DNA of 10,646 nt from a virus (taxonomy: Duplodnaviria; Heunggongvirae; Uroviricota; Caudoviricetes). Positions within the stretch are counted from its first letter, which is position 1. The number at the start of each line of letters is the position of its first letter. Position numbers and translations under genes: made by a program. The DNA lies in IMG/VR virus record IMGVR_UViG_2681813271_000004; one strand, written 5' to 3'. Shown piece by piece: positions 2,012-9,189 of the stretch. The notes below the pieces were generated by a model that was not told the origin of the DNA, ran no database searches, and saw nothing but the letters and a program-made list of their open reading frames with translations.

Positions 2012-4459
2012 TTAACCGTCATGCATCATGCTGGCACGGGCGCGCGCACGTTTATCCCGCTCGTATTTTTCGAGCGCATCCTGTAACTGGCGGTCAAGCT
2101 GTGTCCCCGGTGCAGTACCACCCGTCAGGCTGATGTGATATTCGTTTTTACTCTGGTCCACATAAGAGCGGCCAGCCGGTGCCGTGACCGGCTGATAAGC
2201 CTGATAGCCTGCATAAGAGCTGGTCGCCGGAATATAACCACCGGTGCCATACGTGGCGGCATGAGTTCTGGCGGCGGTCTGGTCAAGTGTGTCTGACTCT
2301 TTGTTGATGACCCCGAGCTTTTCCAGTACCCAGTCAATGCCGCTGCGCAATTTGTTGAACGCATTAAGCGGCAGCATCAGCGCGTCAGCCAGTGCCTGCC
2401 CGAACATGACGCCCGTGTCACGGCAACGGTTCAGGGTGTCCTGGGTGGCTTTGACCGGGGCAATCAGGTTTTTAAACCACTGCCACGCAGCCTGTAACTT
2501 TTCGCCCAGCCAGTCAAACACCGGTTTCAGTGGCGTGAACAGCTCCCCCACCGGCGCAAATGCCGCTTTCAGCCCTTCAACCACACCGCCAAAGAATGCG
2601 CTGACAGGCTCCCAGTATTTACGGATAAGCAACGCCCCGGCGACAATGGCGGCCACCACAGCCACAACCGGCCAGCTAATCGCCCCGATGGCCGTCATAA
2701 CGGCACTACCAACCGTCGTGAAGATTGCCCCCATTGCGCCTGCTGCCGCGATGATGGCATTGATGCCGGTGATAACCGGCCAGGCTACAAGACCAATTGC
2801 ACCGATGATGCCAGTCAGCGCCAGCGCGCCACCGGCAATGAGGCCAATGGTTGACGCCAGTGATTTGTTTTTCTGTACCCAGCCGTCGAGTTTTAACACA
2901 TACTTTGTGGCCGTCTGCGTGAGCTTACGTAGCGCGCCTTCCTGCTGGTCAAACAGGTCTGTCCCCACCGCCTCATAAGCGGACTGAAACTCCTTAAAGT
3001 CACCGCCGAGGTTGTCCTGCATGATATTTACCAGCTCTGCGGTCTTCCCGTCTGAGGCTTTAAACGCAGCGGTCAGTTTGTCCAGCTTTCCGGTTGACGC
3101 GGCAGTCATCAGCACAGCGGCGGCTGAGCTGGCCTCCTCCCCGAAAATGGTTTTCATGTATTCGGCCTGCTGGGCAGTACCGAGCCGGTTTTTCTCAAAG
3201 CTGGCCTGCATTTCTTTCAGAATGGTAAATACTGGTCGGGTGTTTCCCTTACTGTCTGAGGTTTTCACGCCAAGCTCTTTGAGTGCATCCCATGCTTTTC
3301 CAGTCGGTGCCTGCAGGCGACTTAACACGGCACGGCTTCCCGTCCCCGCCATTGAGCCTGTGATTTTTGCATCATGCAGCGCCCCGACCATTGCGGCGGT
3401 TTCTTCAATGCTGACACCGGCATTTTTTGCCACTGGTGCGGCATAGGTCAGCGCATCGCTCATGCCGTCAAAATCAGCGGCGGTTTTGTTCATCGTCATG
3501 GAGAGAACATCCCCGATATGAGCGACCTTATCGTTTGAAAGCTGAAAGGCGGATTTCATCCCCATCAGCAGGGCGGCGTTTTCTTCCATTGTGCGGCGGT
3601 TCGCCAGCGCCATATTCAGCGTGACCGGCGTTGCCGCCTGAATGGCATCAACATCCCCACCCGCTTTCGCAATGATAATCTGTGCACCGGCCGCATCATC
3701 CGCTGAGGCGGCGGTGTTGTCACCGAGCTGGCGCGCCTGCTTGCGGAGTGCAGCCATTTCGGCGGAGTCTTTTGCCACACCGAGCACAGCCTGCAATTCT
3801 GAGTTTTTCTGCGCAAACTCATAACCTGGCATCAGCAGCTTAACTCCGGCTATCGTTCCCGCAGCAGCAATCCCCACACCGGCAGCGCCCACTGAGGCCA
3901 TATTTCCGGCCAGTTCCTTTCCGGCCTGATAACGCTGTTTGACTGCGTTAAGTTTTGCCTGTTGCGCACTGACACGCGCCAGCGCGTCACGCTGCCGGTT
4001 AAGCTGGGCGGTGGTTTCACTGATACGGTTTTTCAGTCCCTGCTCATCATGTGCAAGATTGCGGGTATTAATTCCCACAGCGGCCAGTTCCCGCTGCTGG
4101 CGTTTAACGGAATCTGTCAGGCGGTTATATTTCGCCTGTAAGTCCTCCGCCGCACGCTTTGCGGATTCCAGCACTTTCGCCTGAGCACGGGTCGGGCGTT
4201 CGGTGTTTTTAAACTGTGTGGCAAGGGCTTCGGCCTCCTGCCGTGCCTTTTCAAGTGCATGACCAGTCACGGCGAGCTGTGCACTGGTCTTGCGGAATCC
4301 CTCAATACGGGATGCGTGACCGTTCAGCTCGCGCAGTGATTTTTGTGTTTCCCGGATATCCCCCGACAGCAACTTACTCGCTCTGCGGATGGATTTAAAC
4401 GGGCGGGACGCCTGGTCAACAGCCCTGAGCAATACCTGTAATTTTACATTGTTACTCAT
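2012..4459 (-). CDS. T: Tail tape measure protein (P2 gpT-like), 815 aa
   Basis: 815-aa ORF with an N-terminal coiled-coil-like, Ala/Gln/Arg-rich region followed by Gly/Ala-rich hydrophobic segments (IAGGALALTGIIGAIGLVAWPVITG...), typical of tape measure proteins. Start ATG at 4457-4459 overlaps the end of the E+E' frame. Confidence 0.9.
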   Translation of the reverse strand: MSNNVKLQVLLRAVDQASRPFKSIRRASKLLSGDIRETQKSLRELNGHASRIEGFRKTSAQLAVTGHALEKARQEAEALATQFKNTERPTRAQAKVLESAKRAAEDLQAKYNRLTDSVKRQQRELAAVGINTRNLAHDEQGLKNRISETTAQLNRQRDALARVSAQQAKLNAVKQRYQAGKELAGNMASVGAAGVGIAAAGTIAGVKLLMPGYEFAQKNSELQAVLGVAKDSAEMAALRKQARQLGDNTAASADDAAGAQIIIAKAGGDVDAIQAATPVTLNMALANRRTMEENAALLMGMKSAFQLSNDKVAHIGDVLSMTMNKTAADFDGMSDALTYAAPVAKNAGVSIEETAAMVGALHDAKITGSMAGTGSRAVLSRLQAPTGKAWDALKELGVKTSDSKGNTRPVFTILKEMQASFEKNRLGTAQQAEYMKTIFGEEASSAAAVLMTAASTGKLDKLTAAFKASDGKTAELVNIMQDNLGGDFKEFQSAYEAVGTDLFDQQEGALRKLTQTATKYVLKLDGWVQKNKSLASTIGLIAGGALALTGIIGAIGLVAWPVITGINAIIAAAGAMGAIFTTVGSAVMTAIGAISWPVVAVVAAIVAGALLIRKYWEPVSAFFGGVVEGLKAAFAPVGELFTPLKPVFDWLGEKLQAAWQWFKNLIAPVKATQDTLNRCRDTGVMFGQALADALMLPLNAFNKLRSGIDWVLEKLGVINKESDTLDQTAARTHAATYGTGGYIPATSSYAGYQAYQPVTAPAGRSYVDQSKNEYHISLTGGTAPGTQLDRQLQDALEKYERDKRARARASMMHDG

Positions 4460-4879
4460 TCGTGTTTCCGCTTCGCCTGAGCGCCTTTTCGCGCCATGTG
4501 ATGAGTTCGGTCAGGCTCATGGGATACAGTTCTGATGGCGGCCAGTGAAATATCACTGCCACATCCGCCATCAGGTCATCGACCGACAGATTTTTCGGAA
4601 GCGTCACTGCACCGAGTTCGGCGACAAAAAACCGACCACCTTACCGGCCAGCGCCACAAGGTCAGGCAGTTCCAGCGCGGCGACTTCCTGCTCGGTCAGC
4701 ATCGGTGCCGTCATGCGCGGCAGCACCTTAATCAGTGCATCGACTTCTGAGTTTGCGACCGCAGCCAGACTGACACCGCGCAGCGTCCCCGCACTGGGTT
4801 TCATCAGCGTGACCTGTTCGATAACCTGCTCACCACGCTTGACCGGATTGTCCAGGGTAATCACATTTTCTTTGTTCAT
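4452..4879 (-). CDS. E+E': Tail assembly chaperone E+E' fusion made by a programmed -1 ribosomal frameshift (predicted 142 aa)
   Basis: Slippery site T TTT TTG on the minus strand (plus 4625-4631). Hand translation of the -1 frame from that point gives VAELGAVTLPKNLSVDDLMADVAVIFHWPPSELYPMSLTELITWREKALRRSGNTNE, then TAA at plus 4452-4454. Total is 85 + 57 = 142 aa, and the end overlaps the T start, as in P2 E/E+E'. Confidence 0.72.
4604..4879 (-). CDS. E: Tail assembly chaperone gpE (91 aa, unshifted product)
   Basis: 91-aa ORF between FII and T ending ...VVGFLSPNSVQ. The GGT TTT TTG codons near its 3' end form the slippery heptamer T TTT TTG. Confidence 0.85.
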   Translation of the reverse strand: MNKENVITLDNPVKRGEQVIEQVTLMKPSAGTLRGVSLAAVANSEVDALIKVLPRMTAPMLTEQEVAALELPDLVALAGKVVGFLSPNSVQ

Positions 4880-4935
4880 GGTTTTCTCACTTCTGAATCG
4901 GGGTTAACCGGTCAGCCAGGCTGACCGGATGAAAA

Positions 4936-5454
4936 TTACAGGCCGATATTGCGGCGGTGTTGCTCCAGCCGGTCGACGCCGTTCACCTTCTCAATCATGT
5001 TGATGGTGTCGATTTCGACCAGCTCCTTACCGTCCATCGTCAGCCGGAAATAGGTGCAGACCACGGAGATTTTCGACTCGGTGTCTTCTCCCTGTTTACC
5101 CTCGCCGGTGTCGATTTCTTTCTGACGGCCACGCATGACCACCTCTACGGCCACCGTTTCGCCGGTATCGTCACGCTGGTAAGAGCCTGCAAAACGAATC
5201 GGCACGGCATCCACACCGGTTGCGGCGTAAAGCTCCCAGATAACCGAATCCGGGAAGCCCCCGAGCGACCACTCCATTGACAGCGCATCGTCATCAAGGC
5301 CGAGGTCTACCGGTGCGCTTCCGTTCATCCCCGCACCGCGATAGTTTTCGAGTTTACGGGTCAGTTTTGGCAGCGTGACGGACTTTGCAACGCCCTGATA
5401 GCTGTAGCCGTTCAGAAAGACGTTCATTAACTTGAGTTTGCGCGGCATTGCCAT
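4936..5454 (-). CDS. FII: Major tail tube protein (P2 gpFII-like), 172 aa
   Basis: 172-aa ORF directly downstream of the sheath gene. Length and position match P2 FII. Stop TAA at 4936-4938. Confidence 0.9.
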   Translation of the reverse strand: MAMPRKLKLMNVFLNGYSYQGVAKSVTLPKLTRKLENYRGAGMNGSAPVDLGLDDDALSMEWSLGGFPDSVIWELYAATGVDAVPIRFAGSYQRDDTGETVAVEVVMRGRQKEIDTGEGKQGEDTESKISVVCTYFRLTMDGKELVEIDTINMIEKVNGVDRLEQHRRNIGL

Positions 5455-5466
5455 CGGTCAGGCTCC

Positions 5467-6657
5467 TTAATTGCTGTTAACCGAGGTGACCAGATTTGCC
5501 AGGTATTTATCGGTAATACGCTGGCGCAGGGTCAGGTTTTCAAGAGGAGGCACCGGGGTATAGTCGTAGTCGATATACAGTTTTCCGGCCTTGAGGGTTT
5601 CCGCATCGTTGGATTCTTCGCTGAACCAGCAGGTCGCATCCACGATATAGCCGTTTGTTTTCAGCTCACGGAATTTGGCATTGATGCCGTCAACGATGTC
5701 GCGAATCAGCGTTGCGGTGATGGGCTTGTCCACCGCCCACATGTGCGCCTCAGCCATCGTGTCGGCCAGCACCTGCGCGGTGCGGGTGTAGTTTTCAAAG
5801 AGGAACAGCGGGTCATCAGAGCAGGTACGGTTACCCCAGAAGCGGAAACCGTCACGGCGAATCAGCGTTGTGACGCCTGACTCGTTAAGCAGGTCAGCAT
5901 CGGTGCCGGACTCCTGCAAATCCCAGAATACGGACGCGCTGATGCCGGTAACACCGTTCACCCCGACGTTGGACAGCGTTTTATGCCAGCCCTGCTCCTG
6001 GTCGATTTTAGCGCGCAGACCCAGCGCACGGGCGGTGGCATACGCGGTGGCGGTGGTACTGGCGACCGTATCCCATGCGAGGAAATCCGGCCAGATGACC
6101 ATCAGCTCACGCTGGCTGAAATTCTGACGGTAGGCTTTCACCTCGGAAACGGTCTTACAGCCCCATGCGCTGATATACCCGAAAGCGCGCAGCTTCTGAC
6201 AGACTGATGCCAGTGCAACAGCCACCTCTTTGGTGTCCAGTCCCGGCACGCCGAGAATACGCGGTTTAACACCGGTTACCGACTCCGCCGCCAGCAGGGC
6301 TTTCAGTCCGGTGTACTGACCGTTTTCGTCGGTGGTGCCGATGATATTGGAAACGGTCTGCGCGAGTTTCGTTTCCTCGTCGTCGCCGGTGCCGTCTTCC
6401 ACACGCACGACAACGGTGACCGGTTTTGACTGGTCGGCGATGGCCTGCAACGATGCCGCCAGCGTGCCTTTTTTACCGGCCTTTGCAATTGCGCTCTGCA
6501 CATTGGTAATCAGCACCGGTTTATTGAGGGGGAAGGTTTCCGCATCCGCATCGCTGGCCGTGCAGACCATGCCGACAATGGCAGTGGATACGGTGGAAAT
6601 GACGCGGGTGCCGTCGTTAATCTCCAGCACCTGCACGCCGTGATGATAGTCACTCAT
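5467..6657 (-). CDS. FI: Major tail sheath protein (P2 gpFI-like), 396 aa
   Basis: 396-aa ORF and first gene of the F operon. GGAG RBS 8 nt upstream of ATG (plus 6655-6657). Length and position match P2 FI. Confidence 0.9.
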   Translation of the reverse strand: MSDYHHGVQVLEINDGTRVISTVSTAIVGMVCTASDADAETFPLNKPVLITNVQSAIAKAGKKGTLAASLQAIADQSKPVTVVVRVEDGTGDDEETKLAQTVSNIIGTTDENGQYTGLKALLAAESVTGVKPRILGVPGLDTKEVAVALASVCQKLRAFGYISAWGCKTVSEVKAYRQNFSQRELMVIWPDFLAWDTVASTTATAYATARALGLRAKIDQEQGWHKTLSNVGVNGVTGISASVFWDLQESGTDADLLNESGVTTLIRRDGFRFWGNRTCSDDPLFLFENYTRTAQVLADTMAEAHMWAVDKPITATLIRDIVDGINAKFRELKTNGYIVDATCWFSEESNDAETLKAGKLYIDYDYTPVPPLENLTLRQRITDKYLANLVTSVNSN

Positions 6658-6752
6658 CCGTTTAACTCCGTGGTTAATGGGTGCAACTATTTTCTGTTGG
6701 GCAGTGCATGAGACGCTATTTGACCTGGCTGGTCAGTGGATGAAACAACAGA

Positions 6753-6781
6753 TAAAGAAAATGCGGGCAATTCGCCCGCAT
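6753..6781 (-). terminator. Rho-independent terminator-like hairpin on the minus strand (8-bp GC-rich stem, 5-nt loop, then TTTTCTTT)
   Basis: Plus 6761-6768 atgcgggc and 6774-6781 gcccgcat are perfect reverse complements. On the minus strand the hairpin is followed by TTTTCTTTATC (plus 6750-6760). Confidence 0.5.
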
Positions 6782-6798
6782 GTCCTGATTTGTACACA
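6781..6798 (-). promoter_or_regulatory. TGT-N12-ACA dyad, candidate Ogr-dependent late promoter element for the F operon (P_F)
   Basis: tgtcctgatttgtacaca matches the TGT-N12-ACA consensus of P2/186/P4 late promoters (dyad centred near -55). It is the only such match in the FI upstream region. The implied TSS near 6734 would give a roughly 77-nt leader. Confidence 0.4.
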
Positions 6799-6996
6799 CT
6801 CATTTTCCGACTGACAGTTTACATAGCCCAAACGCTATCAAATCTGACAGCCTGCTATGAGCGAAAAGCGTTAAATCTCACGATATCTGCTACCGGGAAA
6901 AATTTCGATTATCTTCGATGGGAACTTTGATAATGTAGTAAATGCCATTTTCAGCGATCACTTTTCAAGCGTGTGTAAATGATTAATGTTAAAAAA

Positions 6997-7026
6997 TTGA
7001 CTTCACTGAAATAAGGTTGCTAGTAT
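6997..7026 (+). promoter_or_regulatory. Candidate sigma70 promoter for the cargo gene (TTGACT - 18 nt - TAGTAT)
   Basis: -35-like TTGACT at 6997-7002 and -10-like TAGTAT at 7021-7026, in AT-rich DNA about 40 nt upstream of the cargo ATG. AAGGAA RBS at 7058-7063. Confidence 0.3.
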
Positions 7027-7067
7027 TTTTGGAGCAACCATTAATGTTTTTTATTTAAGGAATGTAA

Positions 7068-8328
7068 ATGACATACGCACTGATTGATAATTCAACTCTA
7101 ACTGCAGTCCAAAGAATCGAGGGGAAAGTAAAAACAAGATCGAAGGACTCAGTAGATACAGACATAATAGCATTTGAGAACTATATACAGTCTATTTTGT
7201 TCTATGATCACGTTATCGCGGTTGATGATTATATTCCAGAGTACCGTGGGAGTAGGATTTCAAGTTTCAGAGAGATATTATTTCTTGATAAAGCACAATA
7301 TGGGTTGGATGAAATTGAAAGTGAAGCAAAAAAAATATCTGATGCATTGAAACCTAAAATTCGTGGTGGAACATTTGTTAATGACGATTTTAAAAAACTA
7401 ATTGAACTTCTTCAGACACATATCATATGTACATGGGACATTAGTTCAAGTGTTTATCATCTAACACTGAAGAACTTATCTGATGGAGGTAAGGAGTTTG
7501 AAAAATATGGTAACATTGCTGCTGCCATTTTTTCAGAACTGCGTGATGCTGCTGAGTCTGGTAATAGAACAAATGGCGATGTTGAACTTCTCGATCGATT
7601 TGGCAACCCTATTCGCAAGGGGTACAAAGTTCCCGGAGCAAAATGGGGGGATGGCACATCTGCTGGTGAAGCATCAGATGCAATCAAAGCATTCGTGGCT
7701 TCGCTTGTATGGCTGGCTAATCGGGCAGTATTTTATTCTCTCACAGCTAAGTACCTTCAAGCAGATACTTTTTTATATCCATTACGTCAGGCGTATCAAC
7801 AGACATATTTAAGCCAAAACTGTCAGTATGGTTTTGACTATGCTAAACATATTGTAGAAAACTTTTCCACTTCGTTAAGTCATGATCTCATTGATATTCA
7901 TTCTGGTGGTAAAGCTGTAGCAACAGCAACTTCGCTTCCTTTATTTTCGGCATGGCTCGCAAAAGAAACTGGTGATCCAAGTTGTATTGTTGAAGCTGCT
8001 TATAACATAAGGGACAACAACGAATTTGTAAGGGCCCGTGAGAAAATGCGAGAAATAAAGCGCTTGTTTGATGAAAATGAATTGCCTCAAGCTAATAAGT
8101 CAGTAAGAGCATTGCTTACTGAAGTATCGAAAGAATCAGATTATATTCGAACTAAGTATGGGCTCAAGACTAGACAAGGTGTACCTGTAACTAAGCTTGT
8201 ACATGTATACAATACTGTTGCGGCTATTAATTCCCTTCCGAAACTACCGACCTTTAATTTTAAAGTTAAAGTTCCTGATTTCTTATATGATCTTAAAAAA
8301 CCCAAGGGGTTTCGTGCTCTCTATCGAA
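7068..8328 (+). CDS. Hypothetical protein, at least 420 aa, 3' end lost in the N-gap. Cargo gene at the P2 Z/fun-equivalent hotspot and candidate anti-phage defense / superinfection-exclusion protein of unrecognised family.
   Basis: Long uninterrupted ORF on the strand opposite all phage late genes, in DNA visibly more AT-rich than the flanking tail genes. ATG at 7068 with an upstream AAGGAA. I see no Walker A, HEPN or other canonical motif. The ORF-track extension to 8630 is an artefact of translating N as X. Confidence 0.65.
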
Positions 8329-8585
8329 NNNNNNNNNNNNNNNNNNNNNNNNNNNNNNNNNNNNNNNNNNNNNNNNNNNNNNNNNNNNNNNNNNNNNNNN
8401 NNNNNNNNNNNNNNNNNNNNNNNNNNNNNNNNNNNNNNNNNNNNNNNNNNNNNNNNNNNNNNNNNNNNNNNNNNNNNNNNNNNNNNNNNNNNNNNNNNNN
8501 NNNNNNNNNNNNNNNNNNNNNNNNNNNNNNNNNNNNNNNNNNNNNNNNNNNNNNNNNNNNNNNNNNNNNNNNNNNNNNNNNNNNN
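8329..8585. other. Run of 257 N (assembly gap or masked sequence) inside the cargo island
   Basis: Contiguous n characters from 8329 to 8585. Confidence 0.99.
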
Positions 8586-8627
8586 TGGCACAGAGCGGAC
8601 TCTCAGATTAGGCTTTACTCTGTGCCA
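8586..8627. terminator. 10-bp perfect inverted repeat (tggcacagag / ctctgtgcca, 22-nt loop) between the convergent cargo gene and tfa. Possible terminator for the H-G transcript or a boundary element.
   Basis: Plus 8586-8595 and 8618-8627 are exact reverse complements. The flank that would carry a T-tract on the minus strand is inside the N-gap. No T-tract follows on the plus strand. Confidence 0.25.
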
Positions 8628-8661
8628 TAGATATGTAAGCTCACACCAGAGCTCATACAAC

Positions 8662-9189
8662 TTATTGCGGCATTTCCGGCCATTCAGGATTTGCAGGATC
8701 CACACGACTGACCAGAACACTGTAGCGTTCCCATGCCTCCAGTCGACTGCGCTCCTCATCTGTTGCCATATTCAGCCTGACAGCGCGCTCCAGCGGCAAA
8801 ATCACGGATTCAGCATCTGCAAGAAGTCTGGCTTTCCGATTTTCTGCCTGCTGCTGCAATTCCTCTGCCGTATAAATTCGTTTAATCACTGTACAGTCCT
8901 TAAACATCCAGTTCCCTGAAATGTCCGCCCGTCGGTTAGCAGTAATATCCGGCACTTCAACAACACTTAATCCATCCGGTCTGATAGCTGTCACATCCTT
9001 TTCCACATAGCGGATAATATTATCTTTGTCGTACGCTATTTTTATCGTGTCATCAGCAAAATACTTTTGTTCTTCGTACCAGTTCTTACCATCTTCTGAA
9101 AAAAACCAGACAACATCAAAGTCCTTTGTCAATTGATATTGTTCAACCGTTTTTGGATTACCTGCCGTTATATTTATCAAATGCTGCAT
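8662..9189 (-). CDS. tfa: Tail fiber assembly protein (Tfa / P2 gpG-equivalent chaperone), 175 aa
   Basis: 175-aa ORF starting 3 nt after the tail fiber stop. The C-terminal segment ...[45 protein letters not shown] is characteristic of the lambda/Mu/e14-type tail fiber assembly chaperone family. Confidence 0.88.

What the first reader, a model, noticed from the sequence alone, without database searches (positions are those of the whole stretch)
6900..8661. Unrecognised large cargo gene at the P2 Z/fun-equivalent hotspot between tail fiber assembly gene and tail sheath gene
Every other gene in the window is a syntenic P2 tail gene on the minus strand. Between tfa and FI lies an AT-rich island with one large plus-strand ORF (7068 to at least 8328, at least 420 aa) and its own sigma70-like promoter. 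In P2 this position holds the non-essential Z/fun gene (T5 exclusion), and in P2-like prophages it is a known variable hotspot for anti-phage defense cargo. I see no ATPase, nuclease, HEPN, TIR or reverse-transcriptase signature in the protein, so it may be an uncharacterised defense or exclusion protein. Opposite-strand orientation with its own promoter suggests expression from the lysogen, independent of Ogr.
Basis: partly seen in the sequence, partly recalled or inferred. Interest (0 to 1): 0.85.

Follow-up and report, generated by a model that had tools for sequence, protein, structure and literature searches.

The report
Unknown lone gene in P2 hotspot
A P2-like prophage carries, at its known variable Z/fun slot, one strongly conserved 472-residue gene of a mobile family that matches no known protein family or solved structure; it is a good but untested candidate for a new anti-phage protein.

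Summary
Between the tail-fibre-assembly gene (8662-9189, minus) and the sheath gene (5467-6657, minus) lies an AT-rich insert (about 6871-8585) with one plus-strand gene starting at 7068. Relatives 99.7-100% identical over 6900-8328 show it is 472 aa (WP_000220361.1), ends about 158 nt into the N run, and has no partner gene.

It occupies the same slot and antisense orientation as P2 fun(Z) but is unrelated to it. The slot is variable: 1692 of 5426 complete E. coli genomes have the P2-type FI junction, 7 have this gene, and six sampled intervals all hold different cargo.

The family (PHROG 13435, unknown function) is sporadic across many phyla, nearly constant in length, under purifying selection (dN/dS 0.02-0.17), low in GC in every host checked, and always solitary. 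It often sits on mobile elements or beside known defence genes.

Best reading: a stand-alone, lysogen-expressed defence or exclusion protein (about 0.5), possibly a metal-dependent enzyme. Neither function nor mechanism is shown.

The parts
6871..8585 (.). Variable cargo insert (AT-rich) replacing the fun(Z) segment of P2. The right part is masked by N.
   Evidence: Alignment with P2 AF063097: backbone homology ends at about 6870 on the FI side and resumes at 8586 on the G side. GC is 0.32-0.44.
6997..7026 (+). Sigma-70-like promoter match: TTGACT, 18-nt spacer, (TGc) TAGTAT.
   Evidence: L001 8098-8127, which is window minus 1101. The number of such sites is not above the shuffled expectation. 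The sequence is kept in the Pantoea and Lonsdalea copies of the cassette.
7057..7061 (+). Shine-Dalgarno-like AAGGA, 6 nt before the ATG.
   Evidence: Read from the sequence.
7068..8328 (+). Visible part (codons 1-420) of the 472-aa cargo gene (WP_000220361.1 family, PHROG 13435).
8329..8585 (+). N run (257 N). In relatives 99.7-100% identical over 6900-8328 the matching 196 nt hold the last 52 codons plus the stop (158 nt) and a 38-nt spacer with a small hairpin and T run. That hairpin would be the late-operon terminator on the minus strand.
8586..8629 (.). Ten-base-pair-stem hairpin TGGCACAGAG...CTCTGTGCCA between the convergent cargo and tfa genes. It is P2 backbone, present directly after G in P2.
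   Evidence: free energy -18.8 / -19.3 kcal/mol, z -2.5 / -3.3.
8662..9189 (-). Tail fibre assembly gene (P2 G), right border of the hotspot.
   Evidence: PF02413.
5467..6657 (-). Tail sheath gene (P2 FI), left border of the hotspot.
6725..6753 (-). Position homologous to the annotated Ogr/activator-binding site of the P2 pF late promoter.
   Evidence: P2 annotation transferred through alignment A2. Inferred by homology only.
6761..6781 (-). GC-rich hairpin followed by a T run on the late-gene strand, conserved in P2 just upstream of pF.

Best explanation
The gene is a stand-alone accessory ('moron') gene carried in the Z/fun hotspot of a P2-like prophage. It is most likely expressed in the lysogen from its own promoter, antisense to the silent late tail operons. 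It most likely protects the lysogen against other phages (exclusion or abortive infection), as fun(Z) and other cargo at this slot do.

The 472-aa cytoplasmic protein acts alone, with no conserved partner. I propose it has an N-terminal alpha/beta domain (about residues 1-137) bearing a family-wide acidic cluster (D7, D32, E37, D47, D53, D54) plus R16 and R63. This is best read as a divalent-metal-dependent catalytic site acting on a nucleic acid or nucleotide. The larger helical and alpha/beta remainder (about 140-472; invariant R219/K, R240, R324, P238, P291, G433 and a conserved C-terminal K-x-P-M end) would then sense infection or restrain the enzyme.

Shown: gene, position, hotspot variability, solitary mobile family, strong purifying selection, no known homologue.
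Inferred: lysogenic expression, anti-phage role, enzymatic nature.
For: - Same slot and orientation as P2 fun(Z), annotated as a T5-blocking lysogenic-conversion gene.
- The slot is hypervariable. The FI junction is in 1692 of 5426 E. coli genomes, this gene in 7, and six sampled intervals all hold different cargo.
- The literature names this locus a defence-enriched hotspot.
- The family is sporadic across phyla: 282 hits, nearly all exactly 472 aa; 21 loci in 185,579 species genomes, including Nitrospira, Cyanobium, Verrucomicrobia and Leptospirales.
- dN/dS is 0.02-0.17 and gene GC is 37-43% in every host checked.
- Contexts include: next to Wadjet MksBEF in Desulfotalea; between IS elements in Tenderia; on an integrase/relaxase element beside an OLD-like ATPase-TOPRIM gene in Pantoea; beside a HEPN-Toprim gene, CTD1-MComp1-SMC and CcdAB in Pectobacterium; followed by a 1490-aa TIR...TPR protein in Cyanobium.
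- Among 140 neighbour ORFs, PADLOC hits include mad3, mad8, AriA, NsnA, PD-T4-2 A and B, PD-T7-5, REase_II and WYL.
- No neighbour family recurs across 19 loci, so it is a single-gene unit.
- The acidic and arginine residues are conserved down to 21% identity.
Against: - No phenotype data exist, and no paper mentions the accessions.
- PADLOC v2 has no model matching any of 67 family members.
- Many neighbours are housekeeping genes. In Acinetobacter the gene is a lone insertion among core genes.
- The neighbour analysis had no matched control, and some PADLOC hits were false (a Lon protease scored as BrxL/DolB).
- The catalytic-site idea rests on conservation only. I could not inspect model coordinates.
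- The candidate third and fourth PIN acids are not conserved: position 107 is D or E in 39 of 67 members, and D124 is kept in 48 of 67.
- The promoter match is no better than chance expectation.
Confidence: 0.5

Rival explanations
1. It is a lysogenic-conversion or fitness gene unrelated to phage defence, for example a metabolic, stress, virulence or interbacterial-competition function. It would ride in the hotspot simply because the slot tolerates cargo.
For: The Z/fun hotspot is mixed-purpose. Sampled intervals hold an acetyltransferase with an HTH protein, a 'lysogenic conversion protein', and invertible fibre segments. Many neighbours of homologues are housekeeping genes. No defence model matches.
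Against: The family is cytoplasmic, solitary and low in GC in all hosts checked. It recurs beside Wadjet, OLD-like, HEPN, TIR, PD-T4-2 and MADS genes and on mobile elements. It has no metabolic or transport domain.
Confidence: 0.2
2. It is a counter-defence or inter-element competition factor that serves the prophage or mobile element itself, for example by inhibiting a host defence or a satellite such as P4, rather than protecting the host.
For: It is carried by a phage and by other mobile elements. PHROGs contains the family, so phage genomes carry it.
Against: Orientation and an own-promoter match suggest lysogenic rather than early lytic expression, though this is inference. At 472 aa it is large for a known anti-defence protein (general knowledge). 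It also occurs as lone chromosomal insertions outside any phage. It has no match in 50,697 deposited phage genomes.
Confidence: 0.1
3. It is a selfish toxin or addiction-type element, or a mobility or maintenance function of the cassette itself.
For: The roughly 1.7-kb cassette moves between unrelated contexts together with short P2-type flanks. It lies next to TA genes in Pectobacterium.
Against: There is no cognate antitoxin or any recurrent neighbour. There is no recombinase, transposase or integrase domain. The gene is stably present on 1000 or more E. coli/Shigella contigs.
Confidence: 0.08
4. It is a phage structural or morphogenetic gene (a tail accessory), or a decaying non-functional ORF.
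For: It lies among tail genes.
Against: It is on the opposite strand. It is absent from more than 99% of P2-type FI junctions in E. coli. It is present in non-phage contexts. dN/dS of 0.02-0.17 and a constant length of 472 aa exclude decay.
Confidence: 0.02

Closest known systems
P2 Fun(Z) (AAD03288.1), the T5-exclusion / FUdR-sensitivity lysogenic-conversion gene
   Same: Exactly the same slot (between G and FI) and the same antisense orientation. Both are a single large ORF (528 vs 472 aa) in a low-GC insert bounded by the same backbone sequences.
   Different: No sequence relationship: BLASTP E 0.12, hhalign probability 1%.
PD-T4 / PD-lambda systems found at the second P2 hotspot (Vassallo et al. 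2022, PMC9519451)
   Same: Same class of locus: cargo of P2-like prophages at the fun locus, mostly 'hypothetical' proteins that were validated as defence.
   Different: None of the PADLOC v2 models, which include the PD systems, matches this protein or 66 relatives. This protein is untested.
DS-3 (WP_022645725.1), the single-protein PIN-nuclease defence system from DefensePredictor (PMC13092281)
   Same: Both are single proteins without an antitoxin. Both have an N-terminus with the pattern hhhD followed by a polar residue and N (IIDTN vs ALIDN). In DS-3 the catalytic acidic residues are required for defence.
   Different: DS-3 is 340 aa and is recognised as PIN by HHpred. hhalign of this family against DS-3 and DS-5 finds nothing, with probability 0.3%.
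VapC / PIN-domain ribonucleases (PF01850; e.g. 1w8i, 2fe1, 7by2, 3tnd)
PHROG 13435
   Same: Full-length match, E 3.4e-259, profile length 472. The gene is a member.
   Different: The PHROG has no annotated function, so membership adds no mechanism.

Membership tests
P2 Z/fun hotspot cargo | Lies between tail fibre assembly gene G and sheath gene FI, inside otherwise conserved backbone. | tested here: met
P2 Z/fun hotspot cargo | The interval varies in content among related prophages. | tested here: met
   1692 genomes have the junction and 7 have this gene. Six sampled intervals plus P2 all differ.
Fun(Z) protein family | Sequence homology to AAD03288.1. | tested here: not met
   BLASTP E 0.12; hhalign probability 1%.
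PHROG 13435 | Full-length HMM match. | tested here: met
   E 3.4e-259, residues 1-420 of the 472-position profile on the visible part.
PIN-domain nucleases (Pfam PIN clan / VapC) | Match to a PIN-clan sequence profile. | tested here: not met
   No PIN family at E <= 1 for 67 members. No Pfam hit of any kind at E <= 10 for the consensus N-terminal domain. hhalign against the VapC profile gives probability 0.3%.
PIN-domain nucleases (Pfam PIN clan / VapC) | PIN fold (three-layer alpha/beta/alpha with a parallel sheet). | tested here: inconclusive
PIN-domain nucleases (Pfam PIN clan / VapC) | Four conserved acidic residues forming the metal site. | tested here: inconclusive
   D7 and E37 are invariant or nearly so. 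Position 107 is D or E in 39 of 67 members and D124 is kept in 48 of 67. Other acids (D32, D47, D53, D54) are conserved instead. Spatial clustering could not be checked.
Known anti-phage defence systems (PADLOC-DB v2.0.0) | Match to any model. | tested here: not met
DS-3 / DS-5 PIN defence proteins | Sequence or profile similarity. | tested here: not met
   hhalign probability 0.3%. Only single DS sequences were used.
Anti-phage defence genes in general | Frequent co-location with known defence genes or mobile elements. | tested here: inconclusive
   Defence genes are adjacent in 3 of 5 non-E. coli Pfam-annotated contexts, and a fourth lies among IS elements. Roughly a dozen of 140 neighbour ORFs hit PADLOC. 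There was no matched control, there are some false hits, and many neighbours are housekeeping genes.
Anti-phage defence genes in general | Confers resistance to phage when expressed. | not testable with these tools
   Needs plaque or infection assays.

The most novel reading that the evidence does not exclude
The 472-aa family is a new single-protein anti-phage system with a fold that has no solved relative. Its N-terminal acidic-cluster domain would be a new, highly divergent PIN-like or Rossmann-like metal-dependent nuclease or nucleotide-processing effector. It would be held inactive by the C-terminal two-thirds of the same chain and released by a phage cue. The roughly 1.7-kb cassette would spread between P2 prophages and other mobile elements of distant phyla, carrying short P2-type flanks with it.
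Probability: 0.3. Interest if true: 0.75.

Novelty: new variant of a known kind. Interest (0 to 1): 0.55.

Why it matters
P2-like prophages are in about a third of complete E. coli genomes. Their hotspots are a proven source of new immune systems. This cargo is a clean single-gene candidate that is easy to clone. It is present on at least 1000 E. coli/Shigella contigs and in many phyla, is strongly constrained, and is invisible to Pfam, NCBIfam, PADLOC and structure searches. If it defends, it adds a new protein family, and probably a new fold or active site, to bacterial immunity. It would also give an unrelated functional counterpart to the poorly understood fun(Z). If it does not defend, it shows how far guilt by hotspot can be trusted at a mixed-purpose locus.

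Tried and rejected
1. Domain searches of the visible 420 aa, 67 family members and the family consensus against Pfam, NCBIfam and PADLOC gave nothing consistent. Only the function-less PHROG 13435 matched.
2. PDB sequence search with two family profiles gave nothing.
4. PIN sequence tests failed: hhalign against Shigella VapC (sequence recalled from memory, then verified identical to 3tnd_A) and against a 26-sequence VapC profile. That VapC profile was shallow (at least 73% identity), so the test is weak.
5. DS-3 and DS-5 of DefensePredictor were considered because DS-3 is a lone PIN protein. No similarity was found.
6. Homology to Fun(Z) is rejected.
8. Distant relatives that match mainly through the C-terminal half were scanned for a swapped N-terminal effector. 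None was found, and they keep the same N-terminal motif.
9. A search for a conserved partner gene found none.
10. Literature and supplement searches for the accessions and the peptide found nothing.

Full report
**1. What is in the sequence**

The window is the tail region of a P2-like prophage. All long ORFs are on the minus strand:
- D 355-1518
- U 1518-1997
- T 2012-4459
- E/E' about 4452-4879
- FII 4936-5454
- FI 5467-6657
- tail fibre assembly (G) 8662-9189
- H from 9193

These come, with annotation of a closely matching E. coli prophage and Pfam labels. Between FI and G the GC content drops from 0.50-0.61 to 0.32-0.44. One plus-strand ORF starts at ATG 7068 and is open up to 8328, where a run of 257 N (8329-8585) begins. 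The listed ORF 7068-8630 of 520 aa simply reads through the N run and is an artefact.

**2. Filling the gap**

The stretch 6900-8328 is 99.7-100% identical in seven complete E. coli genomes, always in the same prophage position. In NZ_CP027366.1 the gene is 1419 nt, 472 aa, WP_000220361.1, 'hypothetical protein'. It ends 158 nt beyond window position 8328. After it come 38 nt of spacer and then the hairpin that the window shows at 8586-8629. The relatives have 196 nt where the window has 257 N, so the length of the N run is not faithful or the window carries about 61 extra bases. Either way there is no room for a partner gene.

**3. Anatomy of the insert**

Alignment with phage P2 (AF063097) shows two boundaries. 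Backbone homology on the FI side runs up to about window 6870. This region includes the position homologous to the annotated pF activator site (about 6725-6753) and a conserved hairpin with a T run at 6761-6781. Homology resumes on the G side at the hairpin 8586-8629. The cargo insert is therefore about 6871-8585.

In P2 the same interval holds fun(Z) (528 aa), also antisense to the tail genes, annotated as blocking T5 and as lysogenic conversion.

Upstream of the ORF there is a TTGACT-18-TAGTAT match with a TG extension (6997-7026) and an AAGGA 6 nt before the ATG. The count of promoter-like sites in this AT-rich DNA is not above the shuffled expectation (4 found, 5.9 expected). I treat the promoter as plausible, not shown.

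Downstream, the cargo gene and G converge on tandem hairpins. On the minus strand the second hairpin is followed by UUUUUCUU, a likely late-operon terminator that lies inside the masked stretch.

**4. Is the slot a hotspot?**

- The FI/pF junction (6400-6870) is found in 1692 of 5426 complete E. coli genomes. The cargo gene is in 7.
- Six sampled G-FI intervals each held different content:
  - a 197-aa 'lysogenic conversion protein'
  - a 299-aa hypothetical protein
  - an acetyltransferase plus an HTH protein
  - a 175-aa hypothetical protein
  - DUF3800 plus a 461-aa hypothetical protein
  - a recombinase with alternative fibre genes
- Vassallo et al. 2022 (PMC9519451) describe this as a second defence-enriched P2 locus, holding three of their validated systems and fun. 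Two later papers also name the Z/fun hotspot, one stressing that it is mixed-purpose.

**5. The protein family**

A search of 5.8 billion proteins returned 282 hits. The top 120 were nearly all exactly 472 aa and 51-100% identical. They came from Pantoea, Serratia, Pectobacterium, Acinetobacter, Halomonas, Vibrio, Psychrobacter, Desulfotalea, Citrifermentans and others. All were 'hypothetical' and none had a Pfam domain.

A full HMMER scan of 1.84 billion cluster representatives found 327 hits at E <= 0.001. The 150 listed are either about 440-485 aa or shorter partial matches. A pattern scan of one genome per species (185,579 species) found 21 loci, including Nitrospira, Cyanobium, Verrucomicrobia, Leptospirales and Desulfogranum.

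Plasmid copies exist in Clostridium kluyveri (38% identity) and on Pseudomonas aeruginosa megaplasmids. No deposited phage genome has it, although PHROG 13435, of unknown function, matches at E 3e-259. The exact protein is on at least 1000 E. coli/Shigella contigs.

Pairwise dN/dS is 0.02-0.17. The gene keeps 37-43% GC in every host checked. It is therefore a real, strongly constrained, horizontally mobile gene.

**6. Context elsewhere**

The gene is always solitary. No neighbour family recurs in 19 loci. The individual contexts were:
- next to MksB/E/F (Wadjet) in Desulfotalea
- among IS elements in Tenderia
- on an integrase/relaxase element beside an OLD-like AAA-TOPRIM gene in Pantoea
- beside a HEPN-Toprim gene, CTD1-MComp1-SMC and CcdAB in Pectobacterium
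- as a lone insertion among core genes in Acinetobacter
- followed by a 1490-aa TIR...TPR protein in a Cyanobium MAG

Of 140 ORFs within 5 kb in 19 other loci, roughly a dozen hit PADLOC models at E < 1e-5. These were mad3 x2, mad8 x2, AriA x2, NsnA, PDC-S35, PD-T4-2 A and B, PD-T7-5, REase_II, WYL and TIR. Many others are housekeeping genes or integrases and transposases. At least one apparent defence hit is a Lon protease.

This is suggestive association with defence islands and mobile elements. I ran no matched control.

**7. What the protein looks like**

Pfam, NCBIfam and PADLOC give nothing for the window protein, for 67 diverse members, or for the family consensus split into three parts. 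PDB sequence searches with two profiles give nothing.

The following residues are conserved down to 21% identity:

| Residue(s) | Conservation in 67 members |
|---|---|
| D7, in the motif hhhD-N-[SA]-T-L-T | 66 of 66 (one member has a gap here) |
| R16, R63 | 66 of 67 each |
| G19, D32, L132 | 67 of 67 |
| E37 | 64 E, 3 D |
| D47, D53, D54 | 61, 61 and 64 of 67 |
| Y55, F67, S128, W215, Y223 | 64 of 67 each |
| W123 | 66 of 67 |
| R219 | 60 R, 7 K |
| P238, R240, P291, R324 | 67 of 67 |
| G433 | 64 of 67 |

The N-terminus and the C-terminal K-x-P-M end are also conserved.

- an N-terminal alpha/beta domain (about 1-137)
- long helices (142-163, 204-230, 318-364)
- further strands in the C-terminal third

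Profile comparisons all give probability of 1% or less. I compared against Shigella VapC (recalled sequence verified as 3tnd_A), a VapC profile, DS-3, DS-5 and Fun(Z).

The PIN idea is therefore a weak lead. D7 and E37 sit where the first two PIN acids would. The putative third and fourth acids (position 107, D124) are poorly conserved. Other acids (D32, D47, D53, D54) are conserved instead. The family has no detectable solved or annotated relative.

**8. Most likely function**

Four lines of evidence fit a stand-alone accessory gene whose most probable role is protection of the lysogen against other phages, as for fun(Z) and the PD systems at this locus:
- position in a defence-enriched hotspot, antisense to late genes, with its own promoter-like site
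- a solitary, mobile, low-GC, sporadic but strongly conserved family
- repeated location in defence islands and on mobile elements
- large size and no structural or metabolic signature

I put this at about 0.5.

The invariant acidic cluster plus several invariant arginines in a cytoplasmic protein suggests a metal-dependent enzyme acting on nucleic acid or nucleotides, controlled by the rest of the chain. I put that sub-claim at about 0.25-0.3. It is inference from conservation only.

Rivals:

| Reading | Confidence |
|---|---|
| Non-defence lysogenic-conversion gene | 0.2 |
| Counter-defence or inter-element factor | 0.1 |
| Selfish toxin or maintenance function | 0.08 |
| Structural gene or decaying ORF | 0.02 (effectively excluded) |

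**9. Novelty and verdict**

The kind of feature, unknown cargo at the P2 Z/fun hotspot, is known. This particular family is not described in any paper I could search and is absent from defence databases as of PADLOC v2.

It is a well-defined, testable candidate. It is not yet a finding about mechanism.
- Interest: 0.55.
- Most novel reading not excluded: a new single-protein defence system with a new fold or a highly divergent PIN-like effector (probability about 0.3; interest if true about 0.75).

Noticed in passing
window 6837-6870 and 8586-8629; L005 7769-9515; L022 7784-9468: The Pantoea and Lonsdalea copies of the gene sit in non-P2 contexts. They share about 1.7 kb of DNA with the E. coli cassette at 86-90% identity. 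This includes the promoter region, a short left-boundary motif (TATGAGCGAAAAGCG here, TTTGAGCGAGAAGCGG in P2) and, fully in Pantoea, the hairpin that in P2 follows gene G. The cassette seems to travel with short P2-type flanks, as expected for exchange by recombination at conserved borders.
   Followed up: partly
window 8329-8585: The N run is 257 nt. Relatives that are 99.7-100% identical over 6900-8328 have 196 nt between the same flanks. The masked length is therefore not faithful, or the source has about 61 extra bases.
   Followed up: yes
L001 9588-9669 (window about 8548-8629, partly masked): On the minus strand two adjacent hairpins are followed by UUUUUCUU directly after gene G (free energy -41 kcal/mol for the 121-nt region, z -2.5). 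This is a likely terminator of the late V-to-G operon, facing the end of the cargo gene.
   Followed up: partly
window 6761-6781, minus strand: A GC-rich hairpin (ATGCGGGCGAATTGCCCGCAT) followed by a T run is conserved in P2 just upstream of the pF activator site. It may insulate the F operon from transcription coming out of the hotspot.
   Followed up: no
protein residues 1-19 and 465-472 (window 7068-7124; C-terminus masked): Both extreme ends of the protein are unusually conserved: MxYALIDN[SA]TLTAVQR at the start and HSxFKSPM-stop at the end in the close family, with K-x-P-M kept in most distant members. This may mean the termini pack together or are recognised by a partner.
   Followed up: partly
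L032 9595-14064: In a Cyanobium MAG the homologue is followed, 179 nt downstream on the same strand, by a 1490-aa protein with an N-terminal TIR domain and C-terminal TPR repeats. This is a likely NLR-like defence gene.
   Followed up: partly
L021 (NZ_CP117672.1) 4818-6974: In some E. coli P2-like prophages the same G-FI interval carries a recombinase and alternative tail-fibre / fibre-assembly genes in inverted orientation (a host-range switch). The hotspot is therefore mixed-purpose.
   Followed up: no
L001 8169-9584 and homologues in L005, L006, L007, L022, L023, L025: The gene keeps 37-43% GC in the seven hosts checked (E. coli, Pantoea, Lonsdalea, Pectobacterium, Acinetobacter, a Nitrospira MAG and Zobellella). 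Synonymous sites are saturated between distant copies while the proteins stay about 70% or more identical.
   Followed up: yes
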